From Candidatus Berkelbacteria bacterium CG_4_9_14_3_um_filter_39_23 (GTDB taxonomy: Bacteria; Patescibacteriota; UBA1384; GWA2-35-9; CG2-30-39-44): 44,375 nt of DNA. The notes beneath the pieces are model-generated. The model did no database searches. It was given only the letters and a program-made list of their open reading frames with translations, and had not been told where the DNA came from. The DNA lies in NCBI GenBank assembly GCA_002789815.1, contig PFTZ01000046.1:1-44375 (forward strand), given 5' to 3'. Of this stretch, positions 23,809 through 35,612 are shown in pieces. A program made the position numbers and the translations under genes. The first letter of the stretch is position 1. Every line of letters starts with the position of its first letter.

Positions 23809-24020
23809 GTGGTATGTTTGTACCACATCAAGATTTAAATACGCCAATATTCAAAATTCCGTAAGTTTGGAATTTGTATCTTGAAATTTAAAATTTTTCC
23901 GTCATCAGGCGGAACTTATATCTTTATGTGGTTGTAATACGCGCCAAATTTGTTTTTTATAACAAATTAGAGTTTTTTACATTTAACTCTGTTTTGAGCA
24001 AAAAAATAGAGATCAAATTT

Positions 24021-25484
<1,464 letters not shown>

Positions 25485-25581
25485 AGGGAGAATTTTAATC
25501 CCAACATAAAGTTGTTGGGAAGGTCGGAATCTCGCAAGAGATTTATTACTGCGTCGTATTACAACCACATTAGGATATAAC

Positions 25582-25606
25582 AAAAACCGCCGATAAGGCG
25601 GTTTTT
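25582..25606. terminator. Bidirectional rho-independent terminator after 16S
   Basis: aaaaaccgcc-gataa-ggcggttttt has an A-tract on one side and a T-tract on the other. It can therefore also terminate the convergent minus-strand ORF 25672-25884. Confidence 0.75.
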
Positions 25607-25671
25607 GAATTTTCAATTTCCAATAATCAATTTTCAAAATGGCAATGTAAAATTAAAAATAAGGGGCAATT

Positions 25672-25884
25672 TCAAGATCTTTGTTTTGCCCAGTTGACGA
25701 TGGTTAATGTTAGCAAAACCACTAAAAAAATTATCAGATATAGAACGACTGAGCCCCAAGCAGTGGAGTACAAAAATTGTTTCTCGCCTTTTACAAGCTC
25801 GTCAAACTGGTTGATGTAATAATAATACCGCACAAAAGGCAAGAGAACGAAACTGGCAATTATACTGGTTAAAATTGTTTTCAT
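25672..25884 (-). CDS. Hypothetical small membrane protein (70 aa, 2 TM)
   Basis: ORF with two hydrophobic segments. I recognise no family. Confidence 0.3.
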   Translation of the reverse strand: MKTILTSIIASFVLLPFVRYYYYINQFDELVKGEKQFLYSTAWGSVVLYLIIFLVVLLTLTIVNWAKQRS

Positions 25885-26087
25885 AATAAAATTATCTGAC
25901 CTCCGAAATCCGATATCTGGTATCTGAACCTTGGTGGTGTGTTTTGAATTCTGCTCGTGCGGGCAAAAAGACCCTTCTCCGTAAAACTACAGACGGTTAA
26001 AAGGGGGTTGGAGGGAAGAAATTTTTGCTCGCCCTCGCTTTTCCGTCGCCAAATTTCGTGCCAGTGAAACTGGCGCGCCGCCTAAAT

Positions 26088-26621
26088 CTATTTTACCGTA
26101 TTAAGCAATTCGTTATTATAATCTCGCATTGTATCTTTATTCGTCGGTTTATACAAAATATTTTCTTTGTATTTTAAATAAACTTCGCTATCGGAATGGT
26201 CGGTTAAAGTTATATCATCTTTTACAACTTCCAAAACAACATTTCTATTTTTATTTTGAGTGATTTTTGCATGGCTGAAAGCGTCAATATAAACCATATT
26301 TTCCCATTTGTCTAACATTTTGAAATGATGAATGTTTTCTGACCACGCAAGCGGGACAACATGATGAAGCTCAAAACCAAGGGTTTTTACGACCGTTTGT
26401 TTTACAAAATACTGATATTTTTCGTTTAACGACCTGTCCAACCTCGTTGTTGTCTCGCTAAAACTATTTTGCCCCTCTTTTAATACTAATTGTTCGCCTC
26501 GCACTTCAAAATATACTGTCTGATTTAAAAGATAATATACTTGGACGATTTTGTTGTGCCAGTTATGAAAATCTCTTTTACTAGGTTTTGATCCAGAAAA
26601 ATTTTTTGGTTTTAATTCCAC
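26088..26621 (-). CDS. HNH (beta-beta-alpha-Me) nuclease domain protein; C-terminal part of a stop-interrupted putative restriction endonuclease
   Basis: Has 'FELHHVVPLAWSEN' ... 'NMVYIDAFSHAKI' (His-His...Asn...His pattern). GTG start. It is in the same frame as ORF 26625-27314, separated by TAA plus one codon. Confidence 0.7.
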   Translation of the reverse strand: MELKPKNFSGSKPSKRDFHNWHNKIVQVYYLLNQTVYFEVRGEQLVLKEGQNSFSETTTRLDRSLNEKYQYFVKQTVVKTLGFELHHVVPLAWSENIHHFKMLDKWENMVYIDAFSHAKITQNKNRNVVLEVVKDDITLTDHSDSEVYLKYKENILYKPTNKDTMRDYNNELLNTVK

Positions 26622-26624
26622 TTT

Positions 26625-27314
26625 TTATATTTCTATAACAGATCTTCTTTGTGTTGGAGTTAAATTTCTGTATTCCTTGATAAGTTCAACTGCTTTATCC
26701 GTATTGATATTAAAACTAGATTCTGTGCCAATGGCAGAAACAAAAAACATATACTCATAAATACTGATTTTATCTATATCGTATTCTTTATCTCTTAAAA
26801 TATCTAAAATAATATCAATGTATCCGCCGAGCAAACTATCTATTCCTTTAGAAAAGATAAAATATTTGTCCAGAATAGTTTTTGCCTTGATTAACTTCAA
26901 GCCCTGATTACTTATTGAAACATATTTAACATTTTGCCTAGAAAAAGAATCCGTTGGTTCTTTTTTCTTGTCATATCGTTCAATCAATCCCATTCTGTGA
27001 AGATCAACAAACAAATTTTTTCGCATTGCGTCTTGAGTGCCTATACCTGCTTTTTGTTTAGCTTCATTACAAAATTGAGCATATAAAAACTCTTCGGAAT
27101 AATTTTCTGGTCTCTTGGAAATGTCGGTCGTCCGAATTGTCATCAAATTTTGATTCGGGGCGTATTTATCCAGCAATATTAAAATATCAATGATTTGCGT
27201 CATCACATAACGATTATGTTCCGAAGAAGGAGAGCCACGATACTTCTCGTTTCTTGTTCTAGAATCAATAAATTCTAGAGCTTTATTTCCTGAATTTATA
27301 TTATTTATTGCCAT
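26625..27314 (-). CDS. Unknown 229-aa protein, probable DNA-recognition part of the restriction enzyme
   Basis: Overlaps the upstream methyltransferase gene by 14 nt. I see no nuclease motif. 'LFVDLHRMGLIERYDKK' looks like a winged-helix segment (weak). Confidence 0.55.
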   Translation of the reverse strand: MAINNINSGNKALEFIDSRTRNEKYRGSPSSEHNRYVMTQIIDILILLDKYAPNQNLMTIRTTDISKRPENYSEEFLYAQFCNEAKQKAGIGTQDAMRKNLFVDLHRMGLIERYDKKKEPTDSFSRQNVKYVSISNQGLKLIKAKTILDKYFIFSKGIDSLLGGYIDIILDILRDKEYDIDKISIYEYMFFVSAIGTESSFNINTDKAVELIKEYRNLTPTQRRSVIEI

Positions 27315-28083
27315 ATTTAATCAAGTTTCTTTTTGCTAATTTAACATAGTTTTTATTATTGTCGGAACAAATAAAATTTCTTTTTAATTTTTTTGCGGCT
27401 ACAGCAGTTATGCCGCTTCCGACAAAACAATCTAAAACAAGATCGCCGACATTTGAACTTGCTTTTATAATTCTTTCCACTAATTCTAGTGGTTTAGGTG
27501 TAATATGAGACATTTTAGGAGTTTTGCCGTTGATTTTATTTTTATGCCTCTCGCTTGTGATATGCCATACTTCACCGCAAAGCCTGCCTTTCGGATTAGG
27601 AAACCACCTTTTGCCGTCTTTTAAAATCCCTTTTATCTTTGCGTGTTCAATTCTATCAGTTGATTCATAGGGTACACGAACATCGTCATAATTAAAAATA
27701 TGATTTTCGCCCTTGGTAAAAAACAAAATTGATTCTTGCCCGTTGCTGAATTTTTGTTTTGCCCCGCCCAATCCGTCTCTTTTATCCCAAGTTATCCAAT
27801 TTTGAAAAAATAACCCTTTCGTCACTAAATAAAAAAGAATAAAAGCCGAATTGTAGGGGGTGTTAAAAATATACAAACTGCCGTTTGATTTTAATTTAGG
27901 GATTAAAGCGTCAATCCAGTGAAATGTAAAATCAAAAAAATCTTTTTCGCTCTCAAAACTATCCCATTTTGCCTTATTCAAATTATATGGCGGATCAATA
28001 ACGGCGAGATTTATTGATTTATCATCAATTTTATTTAAAAACTCAAGGCAATCTAAATTGTAAATTTCGTTTATTTTTTTCAT
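27301..28083 (-). CDS. Beta-class N6-adenine/N4-cytosine DNA methyltransferase (DPPY type)
   Basis: Motif IV 'LAVIDPPYNLN' is N-terminal and motif I 'VLDCFVGSGIT' is C-terminal, which is the beta permutation of the N6_N4_Mtase family. Confidence 0.9.
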   Translation of the reverse strand: MKKINEIYNLDCLEFLNKIDDKSINLAVIDPPYNLNKAKWDSFESEKDFFDFTFHWIDALIPKLKSNGSLYIFNTPYNSAFILFYLVTKGLFFQNWITWDKRDGLGGAKQKFSNGQESILFFTKGENHIFNYDDVRVPYESTDRIEHAKIKGILKDGKRWFPNPKGRLCGEVWHITSERHKNKINGKTPKMSHITPKPLELVERIIKASSNVGDLVLDCFVGSGITAVAAKKLKRNFICSDNNKNYVKLAKRNLIKYGNK

Positions 28084-28086
28084 AAC

Positions 28087-28932
28087 TTAAAATAAAGATT
28101 TGAGTTTTAAATTCATTACTCTTTCGTAACTTTTTGATATTTCATAACCGACATAATTTCTTTTTAATTCTTTGGCAATTTTTAATGTTGTGCCAGAACC
28201 AGCAAAGGGGTCCAAAACCGTATCGCCGACATATGTAAATAATCTAACACAACGCCTAACGATTTCTTCGGGCATTATTGCCGAATGCTCGCCAAAGGCC
28301 AAATCGCCTTTCCCCGGAATTGGTATGTTCCAAATTTGTTTTGTAAATTCTACCCATTCTTTTTCAGTCAATTTGCTTTTTTCTTTTATATCTTTTGGCA
28401 AATTATTTTCGGAAGGTCCATCTTTTACATAAACAGTAATAAATTCAATTGTATTTTGAGCATAAAAATTTCTTGGGTAAGGATAACTACCAAACATCAA
28501 TTTTTTACTCGGATTTGTTCTGTTCCAAATAAATACATCAAGCAGGAATAGTCCCGTGCCGTTCAATATTGAGTGTTCAATATCGCTGTTAATGTCAAAT
28601 ATGTGGCGATTAAAATGTGTGTCTAAAACCTTTTTGAACATTGGCATTAGTGGAGTGTTGACGACTAATTTTCCATTTGGCTTTAATACTCTTTCGCATT
28701 CTTTCCAAACCTGCAACATTTCATTAACATATTTTTTATAATCCGCAATGTCGCCAATTTGTCCACGAATTTTTTCTGACCTTTTATCTTTTTGATAACC
28801 GTCAAGGGAATAATCTTTTATATTGAAATATGGCGGACTAGTAACGACCAATTGGACAGAATTGTCTGGCAATTCTGTCATTTTTCTTGCGTCTTTAAAA
28901 AATAATTTGTTTAAATAATCCATAAAATCCAT
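28087..28932 (-). CDS. Beta-class N4-cytosine/N6-adenine DNA methyltransferase (SPPY type)
   Basis: Motif IV 'LVVTSPPYFN' is N-terminal and motif I 'VLDPFAGSGTT' is C-terminal. SPPY is more often seen in m4C enzymes. Confidence 0.9.
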   Translation of the reverse strand: MDFMDYLNKLFFKDARKMTELPDNSVQLVVTSPPYFNIKDYSLDGYQKDKRSEKIRGQIGDIADYKKYVNEMLQVWKECERVLKPNGKLVVNTPLMPMFKKVLDTHFNRHIFDINSDIEHSILNGTGLFLLDVFIWNRTNPSKKLMFGSYPYPRNFYAQNTIEFITVYVKDGPSENNLPKDIKEKSKLTEKEWVEFTKQIWNIPIPGKGDLAFGEHSAIMPEEIVRRCVRLFTYVGDTVLDPFAGSGTTLKIAKELKRNYVGYEISKSYERVMNLKLKSLF

Positions 28933-29039
28933 TTTATTAAATTATCAACGCTAACTTCAAGGGCTTTTGCAAGTTTATTAAGTGTGTCTAATGTTGGATT
29001 TTGATTTTTGCCATCTTCAATTTTTCGGAAGTCAGATTT
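28913..29039 (-). pseudogene. N-terminally truncated Cro/C1 (XRE)-type HTH remnant (controller-protein-like)
   Basis: The minus-strand frame reads 'KSDFRKIEDGKNQNPTLDTLNKLAKALEVSVDNLIKWILWII*'. This matches the C-terminal half of HTH_3 domains (..isriErGkrnPsldtLlklakaLgvsvdeL). There is no start codon or N-terminal helices. The frame begins at the tRNA-Ile 3' end and overlaps the M gene ATG. Confidence 0.5.
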
Positions 29040-29116
29040 TGGTGGGCGCGGATGGACTCGGACCATCGACCTCTTCATTATCAGTGAAGTGCTCTAACCA
29101 ACTGAGCTACGCGCCC
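29040..29116 (-). tRNA. tRNA-Ile (anticodon GAT), CCA encoded, non-canonical T-loop
   Basis: The reverse complement folds as GGGCGCG-TA-GCTC-AGTTGGTTA-GAGC-A-CTTCA-CTGATAA-TGAAG-AGGTC-GATGG-TCCGAGT-CCATC-CGCGCCC-A-CCA. The T-loop is TCCGAGT, with C where the near-universal U55 is expected. Confidence 0.85.
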
Positions 29117-29180
29117 ATTATAATCTCAAATTGTGCTTGTTGTTATTTTCTACTCGTCTTTTTATTCCCGTATCTTCGCC

Positions 29181-29300
29181 TGTCATTCCCGTGAAAACGG
29201 GAATCCAGACAGGGCTGTATCCCCAATCCGAAGCGCTTCGCTTTCGGTTGAGGATGACAAGGGGGTGGAATGATATTTGCGTAAGTTGCGCAATATTCTA
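29181..29300. repeat. Dispersed GATGAC-module repeat, copy 2
   Basis: Hairpin 'cattcccgtgaaaacgggaatc' (inverted gtcat module), then the core 29219-29265, which is identical to 54-100. The tail 'aatgatatttgcgtaagttgcgcaat' is related to 129-160. Confidence 0.8.
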
Positions 29301-29414
29301 AAAAATCAAGAATCTAGCATCTAAGTATAATTCTAGCAATTTTGGGGAAAAAATGCAATAATATGGTCCAGAGGATAGAAACCAGATATCAGTTTTCCGA
29401 TAAAATTTGAAGCA

Positions 29415-29894
29415 ATGCTTTTAACTACCCATATTTTAATCGGGGGAGCGATCGGACAAGCGGTGGGCAATGCGCCACTTGGTTTTGCATTAGGCGCAGT
29501 ATCTCATTTTGCGCTGGACGCTATTCCGCATTTTGATCCGGGAATATGGAGTGATGTCACCAAGGAAAGTGGCGAAAATATTTGGGACAAAAAAATATGG
29601 GCTTTTGTCGCGGTGGATTTATTAGCAACACTCGGATTACTAATCGTGTTGCTCCCGCAAAGTTTATCGCTTCCATTTATCGCTGGCGCTTTAGGTGGCG
29701 CGTCAGTTGATTTGATTGACAATGTGCCATTTTGGCAAAGGAAAATTCACCAAACAAGAATTGGCAAACAGATTGGCAAATTTCACAATTCACTTCATTT
29801 TGTCAAAAAGGAAATCCTGAGAAAAAATGCCATGGCGCTTCTTGTCGTCCAAGTTGTAATTATCGGATTGATTTTTTGGCTGATTGAGCTATAA
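29415..29894 (+). CDS. Membrane protein, possibly YdjM/DUF457-like membrane-bound hydrolase
   Basis: 159 aa, 4-5 TM. N-terminal 'MLLTTHILIGGAIG' and 'HFALDAIPHFD' His-rich motifs resemble that family (from memory). No clear SD. Confidence 0.4.
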   Translation: MLLTTHILIGGAIGQAVGNAPLGFALGAVSHFALDAIPHFDPGIWSDVTKESGENIWDKKIWAFVAVDLLATLGLLIVLLPQSLSLPFIAGALGGASVDLIDNVPFWQRKIHQTRIGKQIGKFHNSLHFVKKEILRKNAMALLVVQVVIIGLIFWLIEL

Positions 29895-29903
29895 TAATTC
29901 CAA

Positions 29904-30107
29904 ATGTTCACAAGAATTTTAATTTTTATTGCTTCTTTGGTTTTGGGCTACCTCGGTCTTCGGTATAATTATTGGGTGGTTAAAACCGTTGGCAAAAGTC
30001 AGTGGGTTGAAAATAAATTCGGCGCTGGTATGACATTTGCGGTTTACCAGCTAATGGCTTTGATTATCATTATACTTGGTTTTGCCCACTTGATTGGGGC
30101 TATTTGA
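29904..30107 (+). CDS. Hypothetical small membrane protein (67 aa, 2 TM)
   Basis: ORF with two hydrophobic helices, starting 10 nt after the previous stop. Confidence 0.3.
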   Translation: MFTRILIFIASLVLGYLGLRYNYWVVKTVGKSQWVENKFGAGMTFAVYQLMALIIIILGFAHLIGAI

Positions 30108-30123
30108 AATAATATTTTATCAT

Positions 30124-30195
30124 GGGCTCGTAGTTCAATGGTAGAACGCTTCATTTGCAATGAAGAGGTTGGGGGTTCGATTCCTCTCGGGTCCA
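30124..30195 (+). tRNA. tRNA-Cys (anticodon GCA), no encoded CCA
   Basis: Folds as GGGCTCG-TA-GTTC-AATGGTA-GAAC-G-CTTCA-TTTGCAA-TGAAG-AGGTT-GGGGG-TTCGATT-CCTCT-CGGGTCC-A. Confidence 0.9.
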
Positions 30196-30208
30196 AAAAT
30201 ATACATCC

Positions 30209-30237
30209 TTGACAAAAGCATCAGGGATTTTTAAAAT
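30209..30237 (+). promoter_or_regulatory. Sigma70-like promoter with ~120-nt structured leader
   Basis: TTGACA (30209-30214), a 17-nt spacer, then TAAAAT (30232-30237). The leader contains an imperfect hairpin (ggagttgttgttgag / ctaacaacagttcc) whose loop carries the 17-mer 30274-30290, which is shared with 23593-23609. Confidence 0.55.
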
Positions 30238-30364
30238 AGAAATAGGAGTTGTTGTTGAGCGCGTTTTTGTAGCAATTTGCAGTAAAAATGGCACCTAACA
30301 ACAGTTCCAAAAAGTAGTTGGTCGAGCTATTTATTGTTTTTAAATAATAAAAGGAAAAATAATT

Positions 30365-31057
30365 ATGGATTCATTATCAAATTGGACAACCTCAATTCAA
30401 GATGCTTTACAAGTAATCGTCACCAGAGTGGTTGATTTTATTCCTAATATCTTTGGCGCAACCTTAATTCTAATTTTAGGTTGGGTGCTGGCAGCGCTCC
30501 TTGAGTGGGCTGTGGAAAATATCTTGCGCGCAACTGGTCTGCAAACAGTATTTGAAAGAGCCAAGATAGAGGATATTATTAAAAAAGCTGATACCAAGAA
30601 AGATACATCGGGCGTTATTGGTTCAGTAGTAAAATGGATTGTTATTCTGGTAGCGGTGATGGCAGCGGCTGACACATTGCAAATGCCACAGATTGCCGGC
30701 TTTATCAATGATATTTTAGGCTATGTACCAAGTGTTGTTGGCGCAGCAGTTACTTTGGTTGTGGGAGTAATTTTCGCTCATTTTATGGCGAATGTTATTA
30801 AAGGGGCGGTGACTGCCGCTCAACTAAATTTTGCAGATTTGGCAGCTTCAGCTACCAAATATGCGATTTTGGTTTTTACGATATTAGCAGCGCTGTCTCA
30901 AATGGGCATTGCGACTGTTTTTTTACAGACCTTATTCACTGGGTTTGTTGCAATGATTGCTATTGCTGGCGGATTAGCTTTTGGTCTTGGCGGACAAGCG
31001 TTCGCTAAAGATTCTCTAGAGAAGTTTAAAAAAGAAGTCGAAATCCACAGCAAATAG
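30365..31057 (+). CDS. Membrane protein with repeated 'conserved TM helix' segments (mechanosensitive-channel-associated type)
   Basis: 230 aa, about 5 TM, internally repeated. RBS 'aaaggaaaaataattatg'. The family call is from memory of TM_helix repeats. Confidence 0.5.
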   Translation: MDSLSNWTTSIQDALQVIVTRVVDFIPNIFGATLILILGWVLAALLEWAVENILRATGLQTVFERAKIEDIIKKADTKKDTSGVIGSVVKWIVILVAVMAAADTLQMPQIAGFINDILGYVPSVVGAAVTLVVGVIFAHFMANVIKGAVTAAQLNFADLAASATKYAILVFTILAALSQMGIATVFLQTLFTGFVAMIAIAGGLAFGLGGQAFAKDSLEKFKKEVEIHSK

Positions 31058-31153
31058 TTTGCTATTCAGCTTCCTCACAAGGAGGGGAGAAATTAAGGGC
31101 TATAAAGCTAGCAATTTTTGTATTACAAAATAGAGTATGTCTCGCAAGGTTAT

Positions 31154-31189
31154 ACCAGTAGCAAGAAGGTTTGCTTGGTAATTTTTTTC
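31154..31189 (+). terminator. Rho-independent terminator of the 30365-31057 gene
   Basis: Stem accag(ta)gcaa / ttgcttggt with a 2-nt bulge, then 'aattttttt'. Confidence 0.55.
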
Positions 31190-31193
31190 TTAC

Positions 31194-31223
31194 TTGACAA
31201 GCAATTGTATAATTTGATACAAT
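31194..31223 (+). promoter_or_regulatory. Strong sigma70-like promoter upstream of 23S
   Basis: TTGACA (31194-31199), an 18-nt spacer, then TACAAT (31218-31223). Confidence 0.6.
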
Positions 31224-31315
31224 ACATTTAATGGTAGAGAGAAAAGTAGAAGTAAAAATCAGAAAGGGGGTAAGCGCTTGATAGCAGTTTGAGTTTCGTT
31301 TTTCAGATTGTCATC

Positions 31316-31337
31316 AACCGCTTAATGCGGTTTTTTT
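31316..31337 (+). terminator. Intrinsic-terminator-like hairpin inside the 23S leader (also a reverse GATGAC module)
   Basis: aaccgc-ttaat-gcggtt followed by a 7-T run. On the minus strand it reads hairpin + 'ttgatgacaa', i.e. a member of the dispersed repeat family. Confidence 0.5.
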
Positions 31338-31372
31338 CTCGTCAATTTGTGTATTATTCAGGCGAGGTAAAA

Positions 31373-31385
31373 GTACTTTAACAAT
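31373..31385 (+). promoter_or_regulatory. boxA-like antitermination element (23S leader)
   Basis: 'gtactttaacaat' carries the same CTTTAACAA core as 23799-23807. It is preceded by 'aggcgag' at 31360-31366. Confidence 0.6.
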
Positions 31386-31591
31386 ACGGTTTGATTGTCA
31401 ACAACAATCAAAGTAAGTGTAATAAGAGATCACCAAAAGTGTATGGTGGATGCCTTGGCAAAAAACACCGATGAAGGACGTAGTAGCCTGCGATAAGCTT
31501 CGGGTAGCTGGCAAACAAGCTTTGATCCGAAGATGTCCGAATAGGGCAACCTAACTGCGTAAACCGCAGTTGATCGTGCTTCGCACCCAAT

Positions 31592-31726
31592 CTCAAAATT
31601 TAAACCTTCCCGAAAGCTATCGCTAAAGGGCAGGCAAATCTCAAAGTGACCCCGAACAAATTACTTCGCAATTTTACGGGGTAGACAATGTAAAATTTTA
31701 AATTTTGATTTTGAGTGCGTAGTACG
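31592..31726 (+). other. 23S intervening sequence A (domain I, ~135 nt hairpin insertion)
   Basis: It lies between 'ccgaatagggcaacc...' and 'ggtacccgctgaactgaaacatc', where E. coli has about 40 nt. The base pairs cccaatc (31585-31591) with gattggg (31727-31733). The lower stem is made of 'tctcaaaatttaaa' / 'tttaaattttgattttgag'. Confidence 0.6.
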
Positions 31727-31779
31727 ATTGGGTACCCGCTGAACTGAAACATCTTAGTAAGCGGAGGAAAATAAAACAA

Positions 31780-31876
31780 TAATCCCGTTTTCGGGATAGT
31801 GTTTCGCGTCTCGACTTCAAAATGTTAAATTTCAATTTTTGAGATTTGAGATTTGAATTTTGAGATTGCGAAGCAT
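31780..31876 (+). other. 23S intervening sequence B (~97 nt)
   Basis: It interrupts the stretch equivalent to E. coli 'GAGGAAAAGAAAUCAACCGAGAUUCCCCCAGUAGCGGCGAGCGAA', which reads here as 'gaggaaaataaaacaa[insert]tgtgattccttaagtagcggcgagcgaa'. It contains 'tttgagatttgagatttgaattttgagatt'. Confidence 0.6.
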
Positions 31877-32903
31877 TGTGATTCCTTAAGTAGCGGCGAG
31901 CGAAAGAGGAAAAGTCTAGTATTAACGACGATTGAAATTATTAGCAGAATAAACCTGGAAAGGATAACCAAAGCGGGTGATAGTCCCGTAAGCGAAAATT
32001 GTTTCAATTTAAGTTAATCCGATCCCTGATTTTTATTGGGGTGGCAAGTACTGTCAGACACGTGAAATCTGGCAGGAAGATGGGTGGATCATTATCCAAG
32101 ACTAAATATGTTTTTTGACCGATAGTGAACTAGTACCGCGAGGGAAAGGTGAAAAGTACCCCTAGCCGGGGAGTGAAATAGTACCTGAAACCATACACTG
32201 ACAAGGAGTCGGAGCGCGTTTTGCTTAGGCGAAGCGTGTCACGGCGTGCCTTTTGCAGAATGAGCCAACGAGTTGTCATATTTTGCGAGCTCAAGCTTTT
32301 TTAAGGCTGAGGCGTAGGGAAACCGAGTGTTAATAGCGCGATTAGTAAAATGTGGCAGACCCGAAACCGGGTGATCTATCCATGGTCAGGCTGAACTTCG
32401 CCGAAAGGCGGTAGGGAGGGCCGAACACACCAGCGTTGCAAAACTGGGTGATGAATTGTGGATAGTGGTAAAATGCCTATCGAACCCGGAGATAGCTGGT
32501 TCTCCTCGAAATATATTTAGGTATAGCGTTCCACTGCAACCCTGCAGGTAGAGCACTGGTTCGTGTACGGCGGAGAAATTCGTTGGCACGAGTCAAACTC
32601 CGAATAGCAGGACTCAAAGAGTGGAGCAGTCAGTACGTGAGGGCTAAGCTTCATGGTACAAAAGGGAAACAGCCCAGATCGCAATCTAAGGTCCCAAAAT
32701 AAGATTTAAGTGGGAAAGGAAGTAGTCTACCACAGACAAATAGGAGGTTGGCTTAGAAGCAGCCATCCTTTAAAGAAAGCGTAACAGCTCACTATTCGAT
32801 TTTTCTCAACCCGCCTTTGGCGGGAAGAGAGGTAGATTGCGCCGAAAATTCAACGGGGCTAAAATCTTTACCGAAGATGCGGATGCCATTGCTACGCATT
32901 GGA

Positions 32904-33173
32904 AGCATCAAATAACAACATATAAATAACAAACAAATATCTAATTACACGACTTACGTAAATATCTTTCCGCGTTGTCATTGCAAGGCTCCGCCAGCTG
33001 GCGGAAACAAAGTAATCTGGCAAAATTATATGAGATTGCCACGCCTGTTGGCTCGCAACGACATAATACGTAAGTCGTGTAATTACCAAAATTCAAAATG
33101 ACTGAAGCATATAAATATTTTTTACTTTAGAATTTAGGATTTGTTTGGTTATTGTTTCTTGAAATTTGGAATT
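32904..33173 (+). other. 23S intervening sequence in helix 45 (~270 nt)
   Basis: The extended stem pairs gccattgctacgcattgga (32885-32903) with tccattgcatagcagtggc (33174-33192), where E. coli has a short helix-45 hairpin. Inside is a perfect 19-nt inverted repeat, 32942-32960 / 33067-33085, plus gtcat/gatgac-type modules. A smaller ~31-nt expansion is also present at about 32797-32830. Confidence 0.65.
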
Positions 33174-33822
33174 TCCATTGCATAGCAGTGGCGTGGTAGA
33201 GGAGCGTTCTTTAAGCAGCGAAGCTTCACTGTGAAGTGGGGTGGAGTTTAAAGAAGTGCGAATGTTGGCATGAGTAACGAATTAGCCCGGCGAGAAACCG
33301 GGCCACCAAAAGTCTAAGGTTTCCCCCGCAACGATAATCGACGGGGGGTTAGGCGGGAGCTAAGCTTGCGAAAGCGATGCACAGCAGGTTGATATTCCTG
33401 CCCTGCCATATTTTTAAGATATTATGACGCATTTTTAAGCTATTTTATTGCTATGACTATGTAATAAAATGGGGAGAGAGTGACTAGAAAAGTAATATCT
33501 TGCTAAATTTATGGCATCCGTACCGCAAACCGACGCAGGTAGACGGGTTGAGAATACTAAGGTGATCGAGCAAACTCTCGTTAAGGAACTCGGCAAAAAA
33601 ACGTCCGTAACTTCGGAATAAGGACTGCCCGCCTCTTCGGCGGGCCGCAGCGAACGTTTTCCGGGCGACTGTTTATCAAAAACATAGCTCCATGCTAACC
33701 CGCAAGGGGATGTATATGGGGTGATGCCTGCCCAGTGCTGGAAGGTCACGAGGATTAGTGATACCGTGCTACGCACGGTTGAGCTTTGAATCTAAGCCCC
33801 AGTGAACGGCAGCGGTAACTAT

Positions 33823-34519
33823 TAAATAACGGTTAGTAGTTATAAAATCTGGCCAAATGCTGGAAACTCTTGTCAGGTTATTGGTAGGATTAGAAAATTA
33901 TCTAAACCTAACAATCCAATAAATAGAGACAATCAGCAGGAAAGATTTCATAAAAGGAGAAAAATGGATAATAATATTCAAAAAATTCCCGAGAGAATCG
34001 GATGGTATTTTGCGGAATTTGTTGATGGTGAAGGTAGTTTTAATGTTTCACTTAGAAAAAAGCCTGATTATACAATGCATTGGCAAATATGCCCAAGCTT
34101 TAATATTTCACAGAAAAACAGAGCAATTCTTGCCTTATTTAAACATCATTTAAATGTGGGTATATTAAGCGGAGAGCAGATGGATTGTATGCATACGAAT
34201 AGTGAATCACAAAATGCTAAGTGGTATCATTATCCCATTTTTTAATAAATTTAATTTTTTATCTCCAAATCAAAAAAGAAACTTTTCAATATTTAAGGAA
34301 ATAATTAGGTTAATGGACACAGGGATTCATCTGAGTGAAGAAGGATTCAATAAGATTATTGACCCCAGAGAAATTCTAAACAAAGGTAAAGGTAGAAAAC
34401 GAAAATATGAAAAGGATAATTTAAATTATGAAAAATCCCCAGAGACTATACGCCAGAATCGCCAATAAGGCGATATGATATAGTCCGATCTTTATGGAGA
34501 CATAAAGCTAACATAAATG
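33823..34519 (+). mobile_element. Group I intron in 23S helix 69 (insertion after the U equivalent to E. coli ~U1917)
   Basis: The exons 'cggtaactat|' and '|aaccgttctatggtagcgaaattcc' join to match E. coli 'CGUAACUAU|AACGGUCCUAAGGUAGCGAAAUUCC'. The 5' exon ends in U and the intron ends in G (34519). The core element 'gatatagtcc' (34477-34486) resembles the conserved P7/P3 strand of group I introns. A terminal hairpin lies at 34490-34507. Confidence 0.8.
33964..34468 (+). pseudogene. Single-motif LAGLIDADG homing endonuclease gene, frameshifted
   Basis: SD 'aaaggaga' precedes the ATG at 33964. The LAGLIDADG motif is 'FAEFVDGEGSF'. The family-like sequence continues in three different frames: '..ALFKHHLNVG' (frame 1), 'YIKRRADGLYAYE' (frame 3, 34161-34199), then 'IVNHKMLSGIIIPFFNKFNFLS...' (frame 2, to 34468). 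Confidence 0.8.
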
Positions 34520-34933
34520 AACCGTTCTATGGTAGCGAAATTCCTTGGCGTGTAAGTTACGTCCCGCACGAATGGCATAACGGTCTGGAAACTGTCTCAA
34601 CGAGAGGCTCGGTGAAATTACACTGCCGGTAAAGATGCCGGTTACCCGCGGCAAGACGAAAAGACCCCGTGGAGCTTCACTACAGCTTGGCATTGGTTTG
34701 CTTTGCTAAATGTTTAGTCATAGGTGGGAGGGTGTGTGTAGCACTTGTGCTATACGTATTCAACAATGAAAGACCACCCTTGTAGCGTAGCAAATCTAAC
34801 CCTCGTTAAAACGAGGAGACAGTGTTTGGCAGGTAGTTTATCTGGGGCGGATGACTCCTAAAGAGTAACGGAGTCGCTCAAAGGTTGGCTAGTCCCGTAT
34901 GGAAATCGGGATGATAGTGTAAAGGCAAATGCC

Positions 34934-34964
<31 letters not shown>

Positions 34965-35014
34965 CTGCGAAAGCAGGACTTAGTGATCCTCTATCTTTGA
35001 ATGACAGAGATAGA

Positions 35015-35051
<37 letters not shown>

Positions 35052-35612
35052 GATCGCGCCCAATAGCTCACATAGACGGCGCGGTTTGGCACCTCGATGT
35101 CGGCTCAACGCATCCTGGGGGTGGAGCAGCTCCCAAGGGTTTGGCTGTTCGCCAATTAAAGCGTTACGCGAGCTGGGTTCAGAACGTCGCAAGACAGTTC
35201 GGTCTTAATCTGCCGTGGGCGATCAAAACTTGAGGGAAATTCTCCTTAGTACGAGAGGACCAGGAGGAACAAGCCTCTGGTGTACCAGTTGTGCCATCAG
35301 GCGCATCGCTGGGTAGCTATGCTTGTATGGATAACCGCTGAAAGCATATAAGCGGGAAGCCATGCCCAAGATTAGGTTTTGTTTGAGATCCCCCAAAGAC
35401 GATGGGGTTGATAGGTTAGCGGTCTAAGTCCCGTAAGGGATTCAGCCGTCTGATACTAATCGATCGAAGATTTTTTATTACAACTTTGAATTTTTATAAT
35501 TCAAGGTAAAACTTACTTTGATTTTTGTTGACAATTTCGGCATTTTGATTAAATCGCAAGAAGCGAAATTTTTGTATCTAAGTTTTTGGTTGGTTGCGTA
35601 TAAAAATTTTCT

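What the first reader, a model, noticed from the sequence alone, without database searches (positions are those of the whole stretch)
26088..27314. The putative restriction enzyme is a single 407-codon reading frame cut by one in-frame TAA
ORF 26625-27314 ends with TAA at 26625-26627 (minus strand). One codon later (AAA, 26622-26624) comes the GTG at 26619-26621 that opens the HNH ORF, in exactly the same frame: '...RRSVIEI * K V ELKPKNFSG...'.

Joined, the product would be a recognition domain plus a C-terminal HNH domain, which is the architecture of single-chain Type IIS HNH enzymes. Three readings are possible:
- a nonsense-inactivated R gene that leaves two orphan methyltransferases;
- a genuinely split two-subunit nuclease;
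- an assembly or population variant.

Together with the truncated HTH gene, this suggests a system caught in the process of decay or domestication.
Basis: seen in the sequence. Interest (0 to 1): 0.7.

Follow-up and report, generated by a model that had tools for sequence, protein, structure and literature searches.

The report
Nonsense-inactivated MboII-type restriction gene
A restriction-enzyme gene of the well-known MboII type has been switched off by a single base change that creates a stop codon, while its two protective methylase genes stay intact; this is an ordinary case of a bacterial defence system decaying, unusually well documented because working and broken copies coexist in the same wild population.

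Summary
On the minus strand a 229-codon ORF ends in TAA (26627-26625); AAA follows, then GTG (26621-26619) opens a 177-codon ORF in the same frame. Joined, they align end to end with about 408-aa single-chain homologues. These include the Moraxella bovis (MboII source species) locus: R 47% identical, both methyltransferases 67%, same gene order. The HH-N-H motif has the spacing of the mutagenised HpyAII HNH site.

Four contigs of the same species and locus (98.5-99.9% identical) read TTA (Leu230, conserved in at least 90% of homologues) where the window reads TAA. It is therefore a T-to-A nonsense mutation.

It is not an assembly error. The exact 229-aa fragment occurs on 46 contigs and in four NCBI Candidatus Berkelbacteria protein records. 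An intermediate haplotype carries the stop alone.

It is not a conserved split. About 84 of 111 homologous loci are intact single frames, and the lesions in the others lie at scattered positions. The stop falls inside a predicted helix of the recognition region.

Other contigs of this population carry independent lesions in either methyltransferase gene.

Best reading: a segregating loss-of-function R allele that leaves two orphan methyltransferases. Ordinary biology, low novelty.

The parts
26625..27314 (-). 5' part of the R gene: codons 1-229 plus the premature TAA. It covers most of the DNA-recognition region of an MboII-family Type IIS endonuclease.
   Evidence: ORF list and translation. 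99% identical to residues 1-229 of the intact 408-aa alleles P0001 and P0002. In the AF2 model residues 1-280 are confidently folded, and the best Foldseek hits are the Nt.BspD6I large subunit and, weakly, FokI.
26625..26627 (-). Premature stop codon TAA at codon 230, derived from TTA (Leu) by a T-to-A change. On the + strand, base 26626 is T here and A in the intact alleles.
   Evidence: Ungapped comparison with the conspecific contigs L001, L002, L003 and L061. Leu230 is conserved in at least 90% of 26 homologues and is also present in the Moraxella bovis ORF ('AVIDTLKSEL').
26629..26644 (-). Two further derived nonsynonymous changes linked to the stop: ACA to ATA (Thr229Ile, 26629) and AAA to AGA (Lys224Arg, 26644). 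The second creates a GAAGA site.
   Evidence: SNP tables. Contig L060 carries the TAA with the ancestral AAA and ACA, so it is an intermediate haplotype. A GAAGA match lies at 26643-26647 on the minus strand.
26088..26621 (-). 3' remainder of the R gene: codons 232-408 plus TAG. It holds the end of the recognition region and the HNH (beta-beta-alpha-Me) nuclease motif. The GTG 'start' is Val232 of the intact gene.
   Evidence: Same frame as the upstream ORF. The GTG is present as a Val codon in the intact alleles, and column 232 is variable among homologues.
26271..26366 (-). HNH catalytic motif: H317, H318 (26366-26361), N339 and H348 (26273-26271).
   Evidence: These residues are invariant in the 26-sequence alignment. 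The spacings (21 and 9) are identical to HpyAII H329-N350-H359, which were verified by mutagenesis (PMC7494987), and to the M. bovis ORF, which has DH...N...H.
27301..28083 (-). 260-aa N6/N4 DNA methyltransferase, intact. It is the counterpart of the methyltransferase gene immediately upstream of R in M. bovis. It overlaps the R start by 14 nt. An A7 tract follows its ATG.
   Evidence: Pfam PF01555, E 9e-60. 67% identical to the M. bovis ORF next to R. An A7-to-A8 variant in L057 frameshifts it.
28087..28932 (-). 281-aa (278 from the second ATG) N6/N4 DNA methyltransferase, intact in the window. It is the counterpart of the second MboII-locus methyltransferase.
   Evidence: Pfam PF01555, E 2.3e-48. 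67% identical to the M. bovis locus. 43 synonymous versus 12 nonsynonymous variable sites among conspecific contigs. Codon 201 is TGG-to-TGA in L001, L056 and L059.
28911..29039 (-). Remnant of a controller-type HTH gene. Only the C-terminal ~35 residues of the domain remain, and they abut the 3' end of tRNA-Ile.
   Evidence: Pfam HTH_26 matches profile positions 27-61 of 63 only. Full-length 69-aa HTH genes precede the cassette in L004. tblastn covers only fragment residues 19-50.
29040..29116 (-). tRNA-Ile(GAT), inverted relative to the rRNA genes. It forms the upstream boundary of the cassette. A promoter-like site lies just upstream (29146-29117).
   Evidence: ARAGORN, Rfam and the promoter scan.
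26027..26086 (-). GC-rich hairpin-containing element just downstream of the R stop codon. It forms the downstream boundary of the low-GC cassette and exists as two haplotypes.
   Evidence: Homology with the L004 cassette ends at 26082. SNPs cluster at 26064-26097. A related copy lies upstream of the cassette in L059.

Best explanation
The region is a loss-of-function allele of the endonuclease gene of an MboII-family Type IIS restriction-modification cassette. The gene order is HTH remnant, 281-aa methyltransferase, 260-aa methyltransferase, R. The cassette is a low-GC island inserted next to tRNA-Ile in the 16S-23S spacer of a Candidatus Berkelbacteria genome.

Shown:
- A single T-to-A transversion turned the conserved Leu230 codon TTA into TAA.
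- The intact 408-aa allele still exists at the same locus in the same population.
- The broken allele is the commoner one.
- An intermediate haplotype carries the stop alone.
- Both methyltransferase genes are intact in the window.

Inferred:
- Translation ends after residue 229. The product has most of the DNA-recognition region but lacks the rest of its last subdomain and the whole HNH nuclease, so restriction activity is lost.
- The downstream 177-codon ORF is not a gene. It is the untranslated, or at best weakly re-initiated, remainder.
- The two methyltransferases continue to modify the (probably GAAGA/TCTTC) sites as orphans.
- The system is decaying. Sister contigs carry independent knock-outs of one or the other methyltransferase, and recombination shuffles these lesions.
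For: - Sequence: TAA at 26627-26625, same frame on both sides.
- Homologues: 577 protein hits. The 120 best are nearly all 407-419 aa and cover 100% of the joined query. In DNA-level surveys that do not depend on gene calling, about 37 of 45 species-representative genome loci and 47 of 66 metagenome loci are uninterrupted single frames. Most of the rest are cut by contig ends or use TGA as a sense codon.
- Same locus, other samples: L001, L002 and L003 are 99.7-99.9% identical without gaps over 10-13.6 kb, and L061 is 98.5% identical over 3.8 kb. All four read AAA...ACA TTA where the window reads AGA...ATA TAA.
- Intermediate haplotype: L060 reads AAA...ACA TAA.
- Conservation: Leu230 is at least 90% conserved and lies in a gap-free conserved stretch. 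It is present in the M. bovis ORF.
- Not an artefact: the exact 229-aa and 177-aa products lie on 46 and 40 contigs. Four NCBI Berkelbacteria protein records carry each. The 229-aa product is indexed in 107 blocks of the collection.
- Family: the M. bovis CCUG 2133 locus has the same gene order, with 67%, 67% and 47% identity. The HNH spacing equals that of HpyAII. MboII is classed as a Type IIS HNH enzyme (PMC2441816 and PMC4081073).
- Structure: pLDDT is 70-95 over residues 1-280. Residue 230 lies inside helix 220-233. The region resembles the Nt.BspD6I/FokI recognition domain.
- Decay: M281 W201 to stop in L001, L056 and L059. M260 A7-to-A8 frameshift in L057. The HTH gene is truncated in all contigs.
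- Substitutions seen only on the nonsense background within R are all nonsynonymous (3 to 0 at the DNA level).
Against: - No reads, expression data or enzyme assay are available, so loss of activity is inferred.
- Both halves remain open, with no second disabling mutation in the 12 nonsense-allele contigs examined. The allele is too young (about 99.9% identity) for this to be informative.
- A start-type codon lies 3 nt after the stop, so termination-reinitiation cannot be excluded.
- The two extra substitutions lie within 18 nt of the stop, which is more clustered than simple neutral decay predicts.
- Several unrelated lineages show breaks near the same codon.
- The AF2 model is only moderately confident (mean pLDDT 65.5, HNH part below 50). 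The Foldseek E-values are weak (8.8e-3).
Confidence: 0.85

Rival explanations
1. Functional split enzyme. After termination at TAA, ribosomes re-initiate at the GTG 3 nt downstream. The 229-aa recognition fragment and the 177-aa HNH fragment then associate into an active, perhaps attenuated, two-piece Type IIS nuclease.
For: - The stop and the restart codon are 3 nt apart and both ORFs stay open in every nonsense-allele contig.
- The allele is the majority form.
- Two extra substitutions cluster right at the new C-terminus.
- Independent lineages show discontinuities at nearly the same place. L066 has a single in-frame TAA aligned to codon 232. L062 has a stop at about 227 followed by GTG. L117 has a frameshift at about 222. 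L046 ends at 233. In L065 the C-terminal module follows an unrelated ORF.
- Heteromeric Type IIS enzymes exist, for example BspD6I (own knowledge; the structures appear).
Against: - The GTG is an ordinary Val codon of the intact gene at a non-conserved column, and no SD precedes it.
- The mutated Leu is conserved, and the break lies inside a predicted helix rather than in the low-confidence loop 193-201.
- About 84 of 111 relatives surveyed at the DNA level are single frames, and the true lesions elsewhere are scattered (codons 26-279).
- The parallel cases were found by selecting C-terminal ORFs of 172-185 aa, so they are biased. Most come from contigs of 0.7-1.1 kb, and one of those has 1.8x coverage.
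- Methyltransferase knock-outs occur on the nonsense background (L056, L057, L059).
Confidence: 0.07
2. Assembly or sequencing artefact: the true sequence is an intact ORF.
For: Metagenome-assembled contigs can carry consensus errors, and no reads were available.
Against: The identical broken halves were assembled independently on 46 and 40 contigs, from ENA, JGI, Logan and NCBI assemblies and several MAGs. The stop is linked to two other SNPs as a haplotype, and a separate haplotype has the stop alone.
Confidence: 0.01
3. Recoding: TAA is read through or reassigned, so a full-length enzyme is still made.
For: Some relatives (L043, L129, L132) come from organisms that read TGA as a sense codon, which shows that the family occurs in recoded lineages.
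Against: In this window all three stop codons end long ORFs, and TAA is the commonest (14 of 29). The conspecific intact allele has a plain Leu codon at this position. No recoding signal was seen.
Confidence: 0.02
4. Reversible ON/OFF switch (phase variation) of the R gene, as described for HpyAII in Helicobacter pylori.
For: Both states coexist in one population. HpyAII is described as phase-variable (PMC7494987). An A7 tract at the start of the 260-aa methyltransferase does vary (A8 in L057). In L117 an A-run at codons 222-224 is frameshifted.
Against: The lesion here is a base substitution, not a change in repeat length. The stop is flanked by two further fixed substitutions. A plain reversion (TAA to TTA) would be rare.
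Confidence: 0.03

Closest known systems
MboII restriction-modification system of Moraxella bovis (R.MboII, M1.MboII, M2.MboII; GAAGA 8/7)
   Same: The gene order is the same: two beta-class N6/N4 methyltransferases followed by R. In the M. bovis type-strain locus L042 the methyltransferases are 67% and 67% identical and R is 47% identical over 355 residues. R is a single chain of about 408-416 aa with a C-terminal (D/H)H-N-H motif of identical spacing. MboII is classed as a Type IIS HNH enzyme by sequence analysis (PMC2441816, PMC4081073).
   Different: The R gene here carries a premature TAA at codon 230. The host is a candidate-phyla-radiation bacterium. The cassette carries a remnant of an HTH gene and sits in the rRNA spacer. 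Specificity (GAAGA) is assumed, not shown, and no site avoidance is seen (77 observed versus 92 +/- 10 expected).
HpyAII (HpyII) system of Helicobacter pylori 26695
   Same: It is an MboII isoschizomer with two methyltransferases (m6A and m4C) and a Type IIS R. Its HNH residues H328, H329, N350 and H359 were tested by mutagenesis. The spacing matches H317, H318, N339 and H348 here. Natural ON/OFF variation of R, and loss and regain of the system, are known there (as stated in PMC7494987).
   Different: Direct sequence homology to HpyAII was not tested here. The HpyAII paper (PMC7494987) calls the enzyme phase-variable and describes regulation of the system by deletion and reconstitution at flanking repeats, whereas here the lesion is a point nonsense mutation.
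Nt.BspD6I / FokI-type Type IIS recognition domains
   Same: The model of residues 1 to about 280 gives its best PDB matches to the Nt.BspD6I large subunit (probability 0.95-1.0, 270-313 aligned columns) and weak matches to FokI. This fits a multi-subdomain recognition region followed by a separate nuclease domain.
   Different: The E-values are weak (at best 8.8e-3) and TM is about 0.4. Those enzymes have PD-(D/E)XK catalytic domains, not HNH. BspD6I is naturally heteromeric with a separate small subunit, which is not the conserved state in this family.
Decayed RM systems with orphan methyltransferases (general phenomenon)
   Same: R is inactivated by a nonsense mutation while the cognate methyltransferases stay intact. 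The lesions segregate within a population.
   Different: Nothing is different in principle. The added detail is that intact, intermediate and derived haplotypes, plus independent methyltransferase knock-outs, can all be seen in one uncultivated population.

Membership tests
MboII-family Type IIS restriction endonuclease | Sequence homology of R to the endonuclease gene of the Moraxella bovis MboII locus | tested here: met
   tblastn of the joined protein against L042 (M. bovis CCUG 2133): 47% identity over residues 3-357, E 1e-101. The ORF there is about 415 aa.
MboII-family Type IIS restriction endonuclease | C-terminal HNH (beta-beta-alpha-Me) catalytic motif | tested here: met
   H317, H318, N339 and H348 are invariant in 26 homologues. 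The spacings 21 and 9 are as in the mutagenised HpyAII and in the M. bovis ORF. There is no Pfam HNH hit, and the AF2 model of this part is poor, so the fold itself is not confirmed.
MboII-family Type IIS restriction endonuclease | Uninterrupted single-chain R of about 408-416 aa | tested here: not met
   The window has TAA at codon 230. The feature is met by the conspecific alleles L001, L002, L003 and L061.
MboII-family Type IIS restriction endonuclease | Recognition of GAAGA and cleavage 8/7 nt downstream | not testable with these tools
   Only inferred from 47% (R) and 67% (M) identity to the M. bovis locus. GAAGA is not depleted in the window.
MboII-type RM system (two methyltransferases, one per strand) | Two adjacent beta-class N6/N4 methyltransferases co-oriented with R | tested here: met
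   PF01555 at E 9e-60 and 2.3e-48. The order and orientation match L042, L004, L005, L012, L021, L040 and L033. Which one makes m6A and which m4C was not tested.
C-protein-controlled RM system | Complete controller HTH gene upstream of the operon | tested here: not met
   Only profile positions 27-61 of 63 of HTH_26 remain, and they abut tRNA-Ile. A full 69-aa gene is present in L004.
Naturally heteromeric or split Type IIS enzymes (BspD6I/BtsI-like) | Two separate genes, each with its own start signals, conserved as such among homologues | tested here: not met
   About 84 of 111 related loci are single frames. The GTG is Val232 of the intact gene. There is no SD. The few split-like relatives are biased or low-quality finds.
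Phase-variable R genes | Simple-sequence repeat whose length change switches the frame | tested here: not met
   The lesion is a base substitution (TTA to TAA) with no repeat-length change.

The most novel reading that the evidence does not exclude
Codons ~218-233 of MboII-family endonucleases may be a recurrently used or tolerated break point. Independent lineages carry in-frame stops, a frameshift, truncations or a swapped N-terminal ORF there. In this Berkelbacteria population the stop allele may have been favoured rather than merely tolerated. One possibility is that the 229-aa fragment survives as a harmless site-specific DNA-binding protein. Another is that the two pieces re-associate into an attenuated nuclease. 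The two clustered substitutions next to the stop would then be adaptive tuning.
Probability: 0.07. Interest if true: 0.55.

Novelty: new member of a known kind. Interest (0 to 1): 0.25.

Why it matters
The main value is for annotation. Public records list the two ORFs as separate proteins ('hypothetical protein' and 'restriction endonuclease'). They are the two halves of one pseudogenised MboII-type R gene, and the two methyltransferases should be treated as functionally orphan in this lineage.

The locus is also a clean natural example of step-wise decay of an RM system in an uncultivated candidate-phyla-radiation bacterium. Intact, intermediate and derived alleles can all be seen. So can independent methyltransferase knock-outs and recombination between alleles. 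These could serve as a small population-genetic case study. It opens no new mechanism.

Tried and rejected
- Pfam and NCBIfam scans of both halves gave no meaningful hit, so no domain-database support for HNH could be obtained.
- A PDB sequence search with the joined protein gave nothing even at E 10.
- AF2 modelled the HNH part poorly (pLDDT below 50 for residues 282-394). The fold search is therefore informative only for the N-terminal region and only weakly.
- SD test: uninformative, because most genes in the window, including the other three cassette genes, lack a recognisable SD.
- GAAGA avoidance: none (z about -1.4), so it gives no help on specificity or activity.
- Is codon 230 unusually prone to nonsense mutation? 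No. There are 10 one-step paths to a stop in codons 220-234, against a mean of 7.6 +/- 2.7.
- Stand-alone C-terminal homologues found by phmmer against 1.84 billion representatives were chased. P0280/L067 is a contig-edge artefact. P0185/L062 and P0149/L063-64 lie on contigs of 0.7-1 kb that start 33-42 nt upstream. P0209/L065 is a different architecture. P0188/L066 is a true in-frame TAA at codon 232. This is not enough, and too biased, to claim a conserved split.
- dN/dS on the nonsense background has too few sites to be useful (3 nonsynonymous, 0 synonymous).
- The Bocklage 1991 MboII paper is not held, so the R.MboII and M.MboII lengths quoted from memory were not used as evidence.
Full report
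**1. The observation**

Reading the minus strand and listing ORFs confirms the description exactly.
- An ATG ORF runs from 27314 to 26625. It has 229 sense codons and ends '...TQRRSVIEI' followed by TAA at 26627-26625.
- The next codon is AAA (26624-26622).
- GTG at 26621-26619 opens a 177-codon ORF ending in TAG at 26090-26088, in the same frame.
- TAA is a normal stop in this genome. Among the 29 long ORFs of the window, 14 end in TAA, 8 in TGA and 7 in TAG.
It carries little weight, because none of the cassette genes and only about a quarter of the window's long ORFs have one.

**2. What the gene is**

Neither half hits any Pfam or NCBIfam model. The joined protein hits no PDB sequence.

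With the stop replaced, however, the joined 408-aa sequence finds 577 homologues. Nearly all of the best 120 are 407-419 aa and cover 100% of the query. A few carry source names such as 'Type-2 restriction enzyme MboII' or 'restriction endonuclease subunit R'.

A DNA-level scan of one genome per species found 45 loci, among them Moraxella bovis CCUG 2133, the species from which MboII was isolated.
- That locus has an ORF of about 415 aa that is 47% identical to the joined protein.
- Two methyltransferase genes precede it in the same order as in the window. They are 67% and 67% identical to the window's 281-aa and 260-aa PF01555 methyltransferases.

The residues H317, H318, N339 and H348 are invariant in an alignment of 26 homologues.
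- Their spacings (21 and 9) are those of H329, N350 and H359 of HpyAII. HpyAII is the Helicobacter pylori isoschizomer of MboII, and its HNH site was verified by mutagenesis (PMC7494987).
- MboII itself is listed among the Type IIS HNH enzymes on the basis of sequence analysis (PMC2441816; PMC4081073).

The system can be named more precisely as an MboII-family cassette. Its specificity (GAAGA) is inferred only.

**3. The stop is a nonsense mutation in a conserved Leu codon**

Exact-sequence look-ups of the closest intact homologues returned contigs from the same genomic locus. They share the same 16S side, the same 159-aa and 230-aa membrane-protein genes, the same HTH remnant and the same 23S.
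- L001, L002 and L003 are 99.88%, 99.86% and 99.70% identical to the window, without a single gap, over 10.6-13.6 kb.
- L061 is a fourth such contig.

All four read AAA...ACA TTA AAA GTG (Lys224...Thr229 Leu230 Lys Val). The window reads AGA...ATA TAA AAA GTG.
- Leu230 is conserved in at least 90% of the aligned homologues and lies in a gap-free, conserved stretch ('QRKSVIETLKxELNPKNF').
- It is also present in the M. bovis ORF ('AVIDTLKSEL').
- The GTG that 'opens' the second ORF is simply Val232 of the intact gene, at a column that varies freely among homologues.

**4. Not an assembly artefact; a segregating allele**

The exact 229-aa product occurs on 46 contigs (longest 88 kb) and the exact 177-aa product on 40.
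- Each is carried by four NCBI protein records, all named Candidatus Berkelbacteria bacterium; the names shown include CG2_30_39_44, CG_4_9_14_3_um_filter_39_23 and CG_4_8_14_3_um_filter_39_27.
- A 192-aa record in the same cluster, called from the internal Met38, lies on a Berkelbacteria contig of exactly the window's length, 44,375 nt.
- The index lists the 229-aa product in 107 blocks of the collection. Ten fetched contigs (L050-L059, from ENA, JGI and NCBI) all show the 229 + 177 arrangement at the same locus.

Intact and broken alleles were both assembled from runs of one groundwater project, PRJNA229517. L002 from SRR1534154 is intact, and L050 from SRR1534387 is broken.

A short JGI contig, L060, carries TAA together with the ancestral AAA and ACA. 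The most economical order is therefore:
1. intact allele;
2. stop alone;
3. stop plus Thr229Ile and Lys224Arg.

Within the fetched contigs, the only changes in R confined to the nonsense background are nonsynonymous (3 to 0). This is compatible with relaxed constraint but far too few sites to prove it.

**5. Not a conserved split**

Two DNA-level surveys were run that are blind to gene calling.
- About 37 of 45 genome loci and 47 of 66 metagenome loci are uninterrupted single frames.
- Most of the others are cut by contig ends, or belong to organisms that read TGA as a sense codon (L043, L129, L132).
- True lesions are scattered:
  - frameshifts near codons 26, 55, 72, 193, 222 and 279;
  - stops at 75 and 81;
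  - truncations at 159, 218 and 233.

An AlphaFold2 model built on the alignment is confident for residues 1-280 (pLDDT 70-95) and poor for the HNH part.
- Residue 230 lies inside helix 220-233, not in the one low-confidence loop (193-201).
- Foldseek gives its best, though weak, matches to the Nt.BspD6I large subunit and to FokI. The first ~280 residues therefore look like a multi-subdomain Type IIS recognition region.
- The stop cuts the last subdomain rather than a linker. This last step is inference from a moderate-quality model.

**6. Context and decay**

The cassette (about 26027-29039) has 32% G+C against about 41% around it. Its position is as follows.
- It lies between the 16S (24019-25482) and 23S (31423-35479) rRNA genes.
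- It directly abuts the 3' end of an inverted tRNA-Ile(GAT).

In an unrelated genome (L004) the same cassette, 94.5% identical over 2.9 kb, is preceded by a complete 69-aa HTH gene. Here only the last ~35 residues of such a domain remain, in all conspecific contigs.

Other contigs of the population carry additional lesions.
- Codon 201 of the 281-aa methyltransferase is TGG-to-TGA in L001, L056 and L059. R is intact in L001 and broken in L056 and L059.
- An A7 tract right after the ATG of the 260-aa methyltransferase is A8 in L057, which gives a frameshift.

Loss of one methyltransferase with R intact is plausible, because M2.MboII alone protects plasmid DNA from R.MboII (the assay described in PMC4417176).

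The SNP table is a mosaic of linked blocks that assort independently among contigs (28532-28621, 28147-28261, 26064-26097, 26626-26644). This indicates recombination among cassette alleles, or possibly some strain-mixing during assembly. In the 281-aa methyltransferase the variable sites are mostly synonymous (43 to 12).

**7. What remains odd**

- The two extra substitutions lie 3 and 18 nt from the stop, closer than chance placement in a 1.2-kb gene would suggest. One of them creates a GAAGA site.
- Several other lineages show discontinuities near the same codons when followed up.
  - L066 has one in-frame TAA aligned to codon 232, with homology on both sides.
  - L062 has a stop at about 227.
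  - L063/64 have a stop at about 231.
  - L117 has an A-run frameshift at about 222.
  - L046 ends at 233 and L048 at 218.
  - In L065 the C-terminal module (from about residue 203) follows an unrelated 278-aa ORF.
- Part of this clustering is selection bias, because I chose C-terminal ORFs of 172-185 aa. Several of the contigs are very short or low coverage. The local density of one-step nonsense paths is unremarkable.
- I therefore record this as unexplained. It is the basis of the low-probability 'tolerated or functional split point' reading.

**8. Verdict**

It is a single MboII-type Type IIS HNH endonuclease gene cut by one nonsense codon.
- The stop is a true, common, segregating allele in a Candidatus Berkelbacteria population.
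- It leaves two intact methyltransferases, in a cassette that shows other signs of decay.
- It is neither an assembly error nor a conserved two-subunit design.

Inactivation of restriction genes with retention of the methyltransferases is well known. Novelty is therefore low (a new member of a known kind), and interest is modest.

Noticed in passing
window 25483-31422: The 16S-23S spacer is about 6 kb long. It holds the RM cassette, an inverted tRNA-Ile(GAT) (29040-29116, minus strand), two small membrane-protein ORFs (29415-29894, 29904-30107), tRNA-Ala(TGC) (30123-30196, plus strand) and a 230-aa MscS-like gene (30365-31057). The classical Ile/Ala spacer tRNAs are thus split and one of them is inverted.
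   Followed up: partly
window 31423-35479, especially 33964-34245: The 23S rRNA match spans 4057 nt for a 2925-position model, so it carries about 1.1 kb of insertions. A 93-aa ORF with a LAGLIDADG_1 hit lies inside it (called in L001-L003). Several of the few SNPs outside the RM cassette fall there (34049, 34077, 34146).
   Followed up: no
window 28330 (L001, L056, L059) and 28074-28080 (L057): Sister contigs carry independent knock-outs of the methyltransferase genes. Trp201 TGG-to-TGA in the 281-aa gene occurs on both R-intact and R-broken backgrounds. An A7-to-A8 slip lies right after the ATG of the 260-aa gene.
   Followed up: partly
window 28532-28621, 28147-28261, 28363-28825 (vs L061): Dense blocks of linked, mostly synonymous SNPs in the 281-aa methyltransferase assort independently among otherwise ~99.9% identical contigs. 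They look like gene-conversion patches from other cassette alleles, or like strain mixing during assembly.
   Followed up: partly
window 26027-26097; L059 20-81; L004 11922-11971: A GC-rich element with a GCCAGT...ACTGGC hairpin lies just downstream of the R stop codon. It exists as two haplotypes (8 linked SNPs). A related copy lies upstream of the cassette in L059, where the tRNA-Ile junction is replaced by other sequence. It could be a cassette end or repeat, or a terminator.
   Followed up: no
L066 (codon 232), L062 (~227), L063/L064 (~231), L117 (~222), L046 (233), L048 (~218): Independent stops, a frameshift and truncations in distant homologues cluster near the same codons as the window's stop. 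This is partly explained by how the cases were selected and by poor contigs, but not fully.
   Followed up: partly
L065 536-1971: In a 44.8-kb scaffold the C-terminal module of the family (from about residue 203, including the HNH motif) follows an unrelated 278-aa ORF in another frame. The two methyltransferase genes lie downstream instead of upstream. This may be a domain-swapped or two-gene relative.
   Followed up: partly
L043, L129, L132: Homologues with 6-22 in-frame TGA codons and no other stops. They presumably come from lineages that read TGA as a sense codon, so the cassette has spread into recoded bacteria.
   Followed up: no
window 26643-26647 (minus strand): The derived Lys224Arg change (AAA to AGA) creates a GAAGA site, the presumed recognition sequence, inside the inactivated R gene.
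   Followed up: no
window 29117-29146 (minus strand): A 10-of-12 sigma-70-like promoter match (ATAACA-18-TATAAT) ends exactly at the 5' end of tRNA-Ile. The RM genes follow the tRNA with no terminator-like site on that strand in between. They may therefore be transcribed by read-through from the tRNA promoter now that the controller gene is truncated.
   Followed up: no
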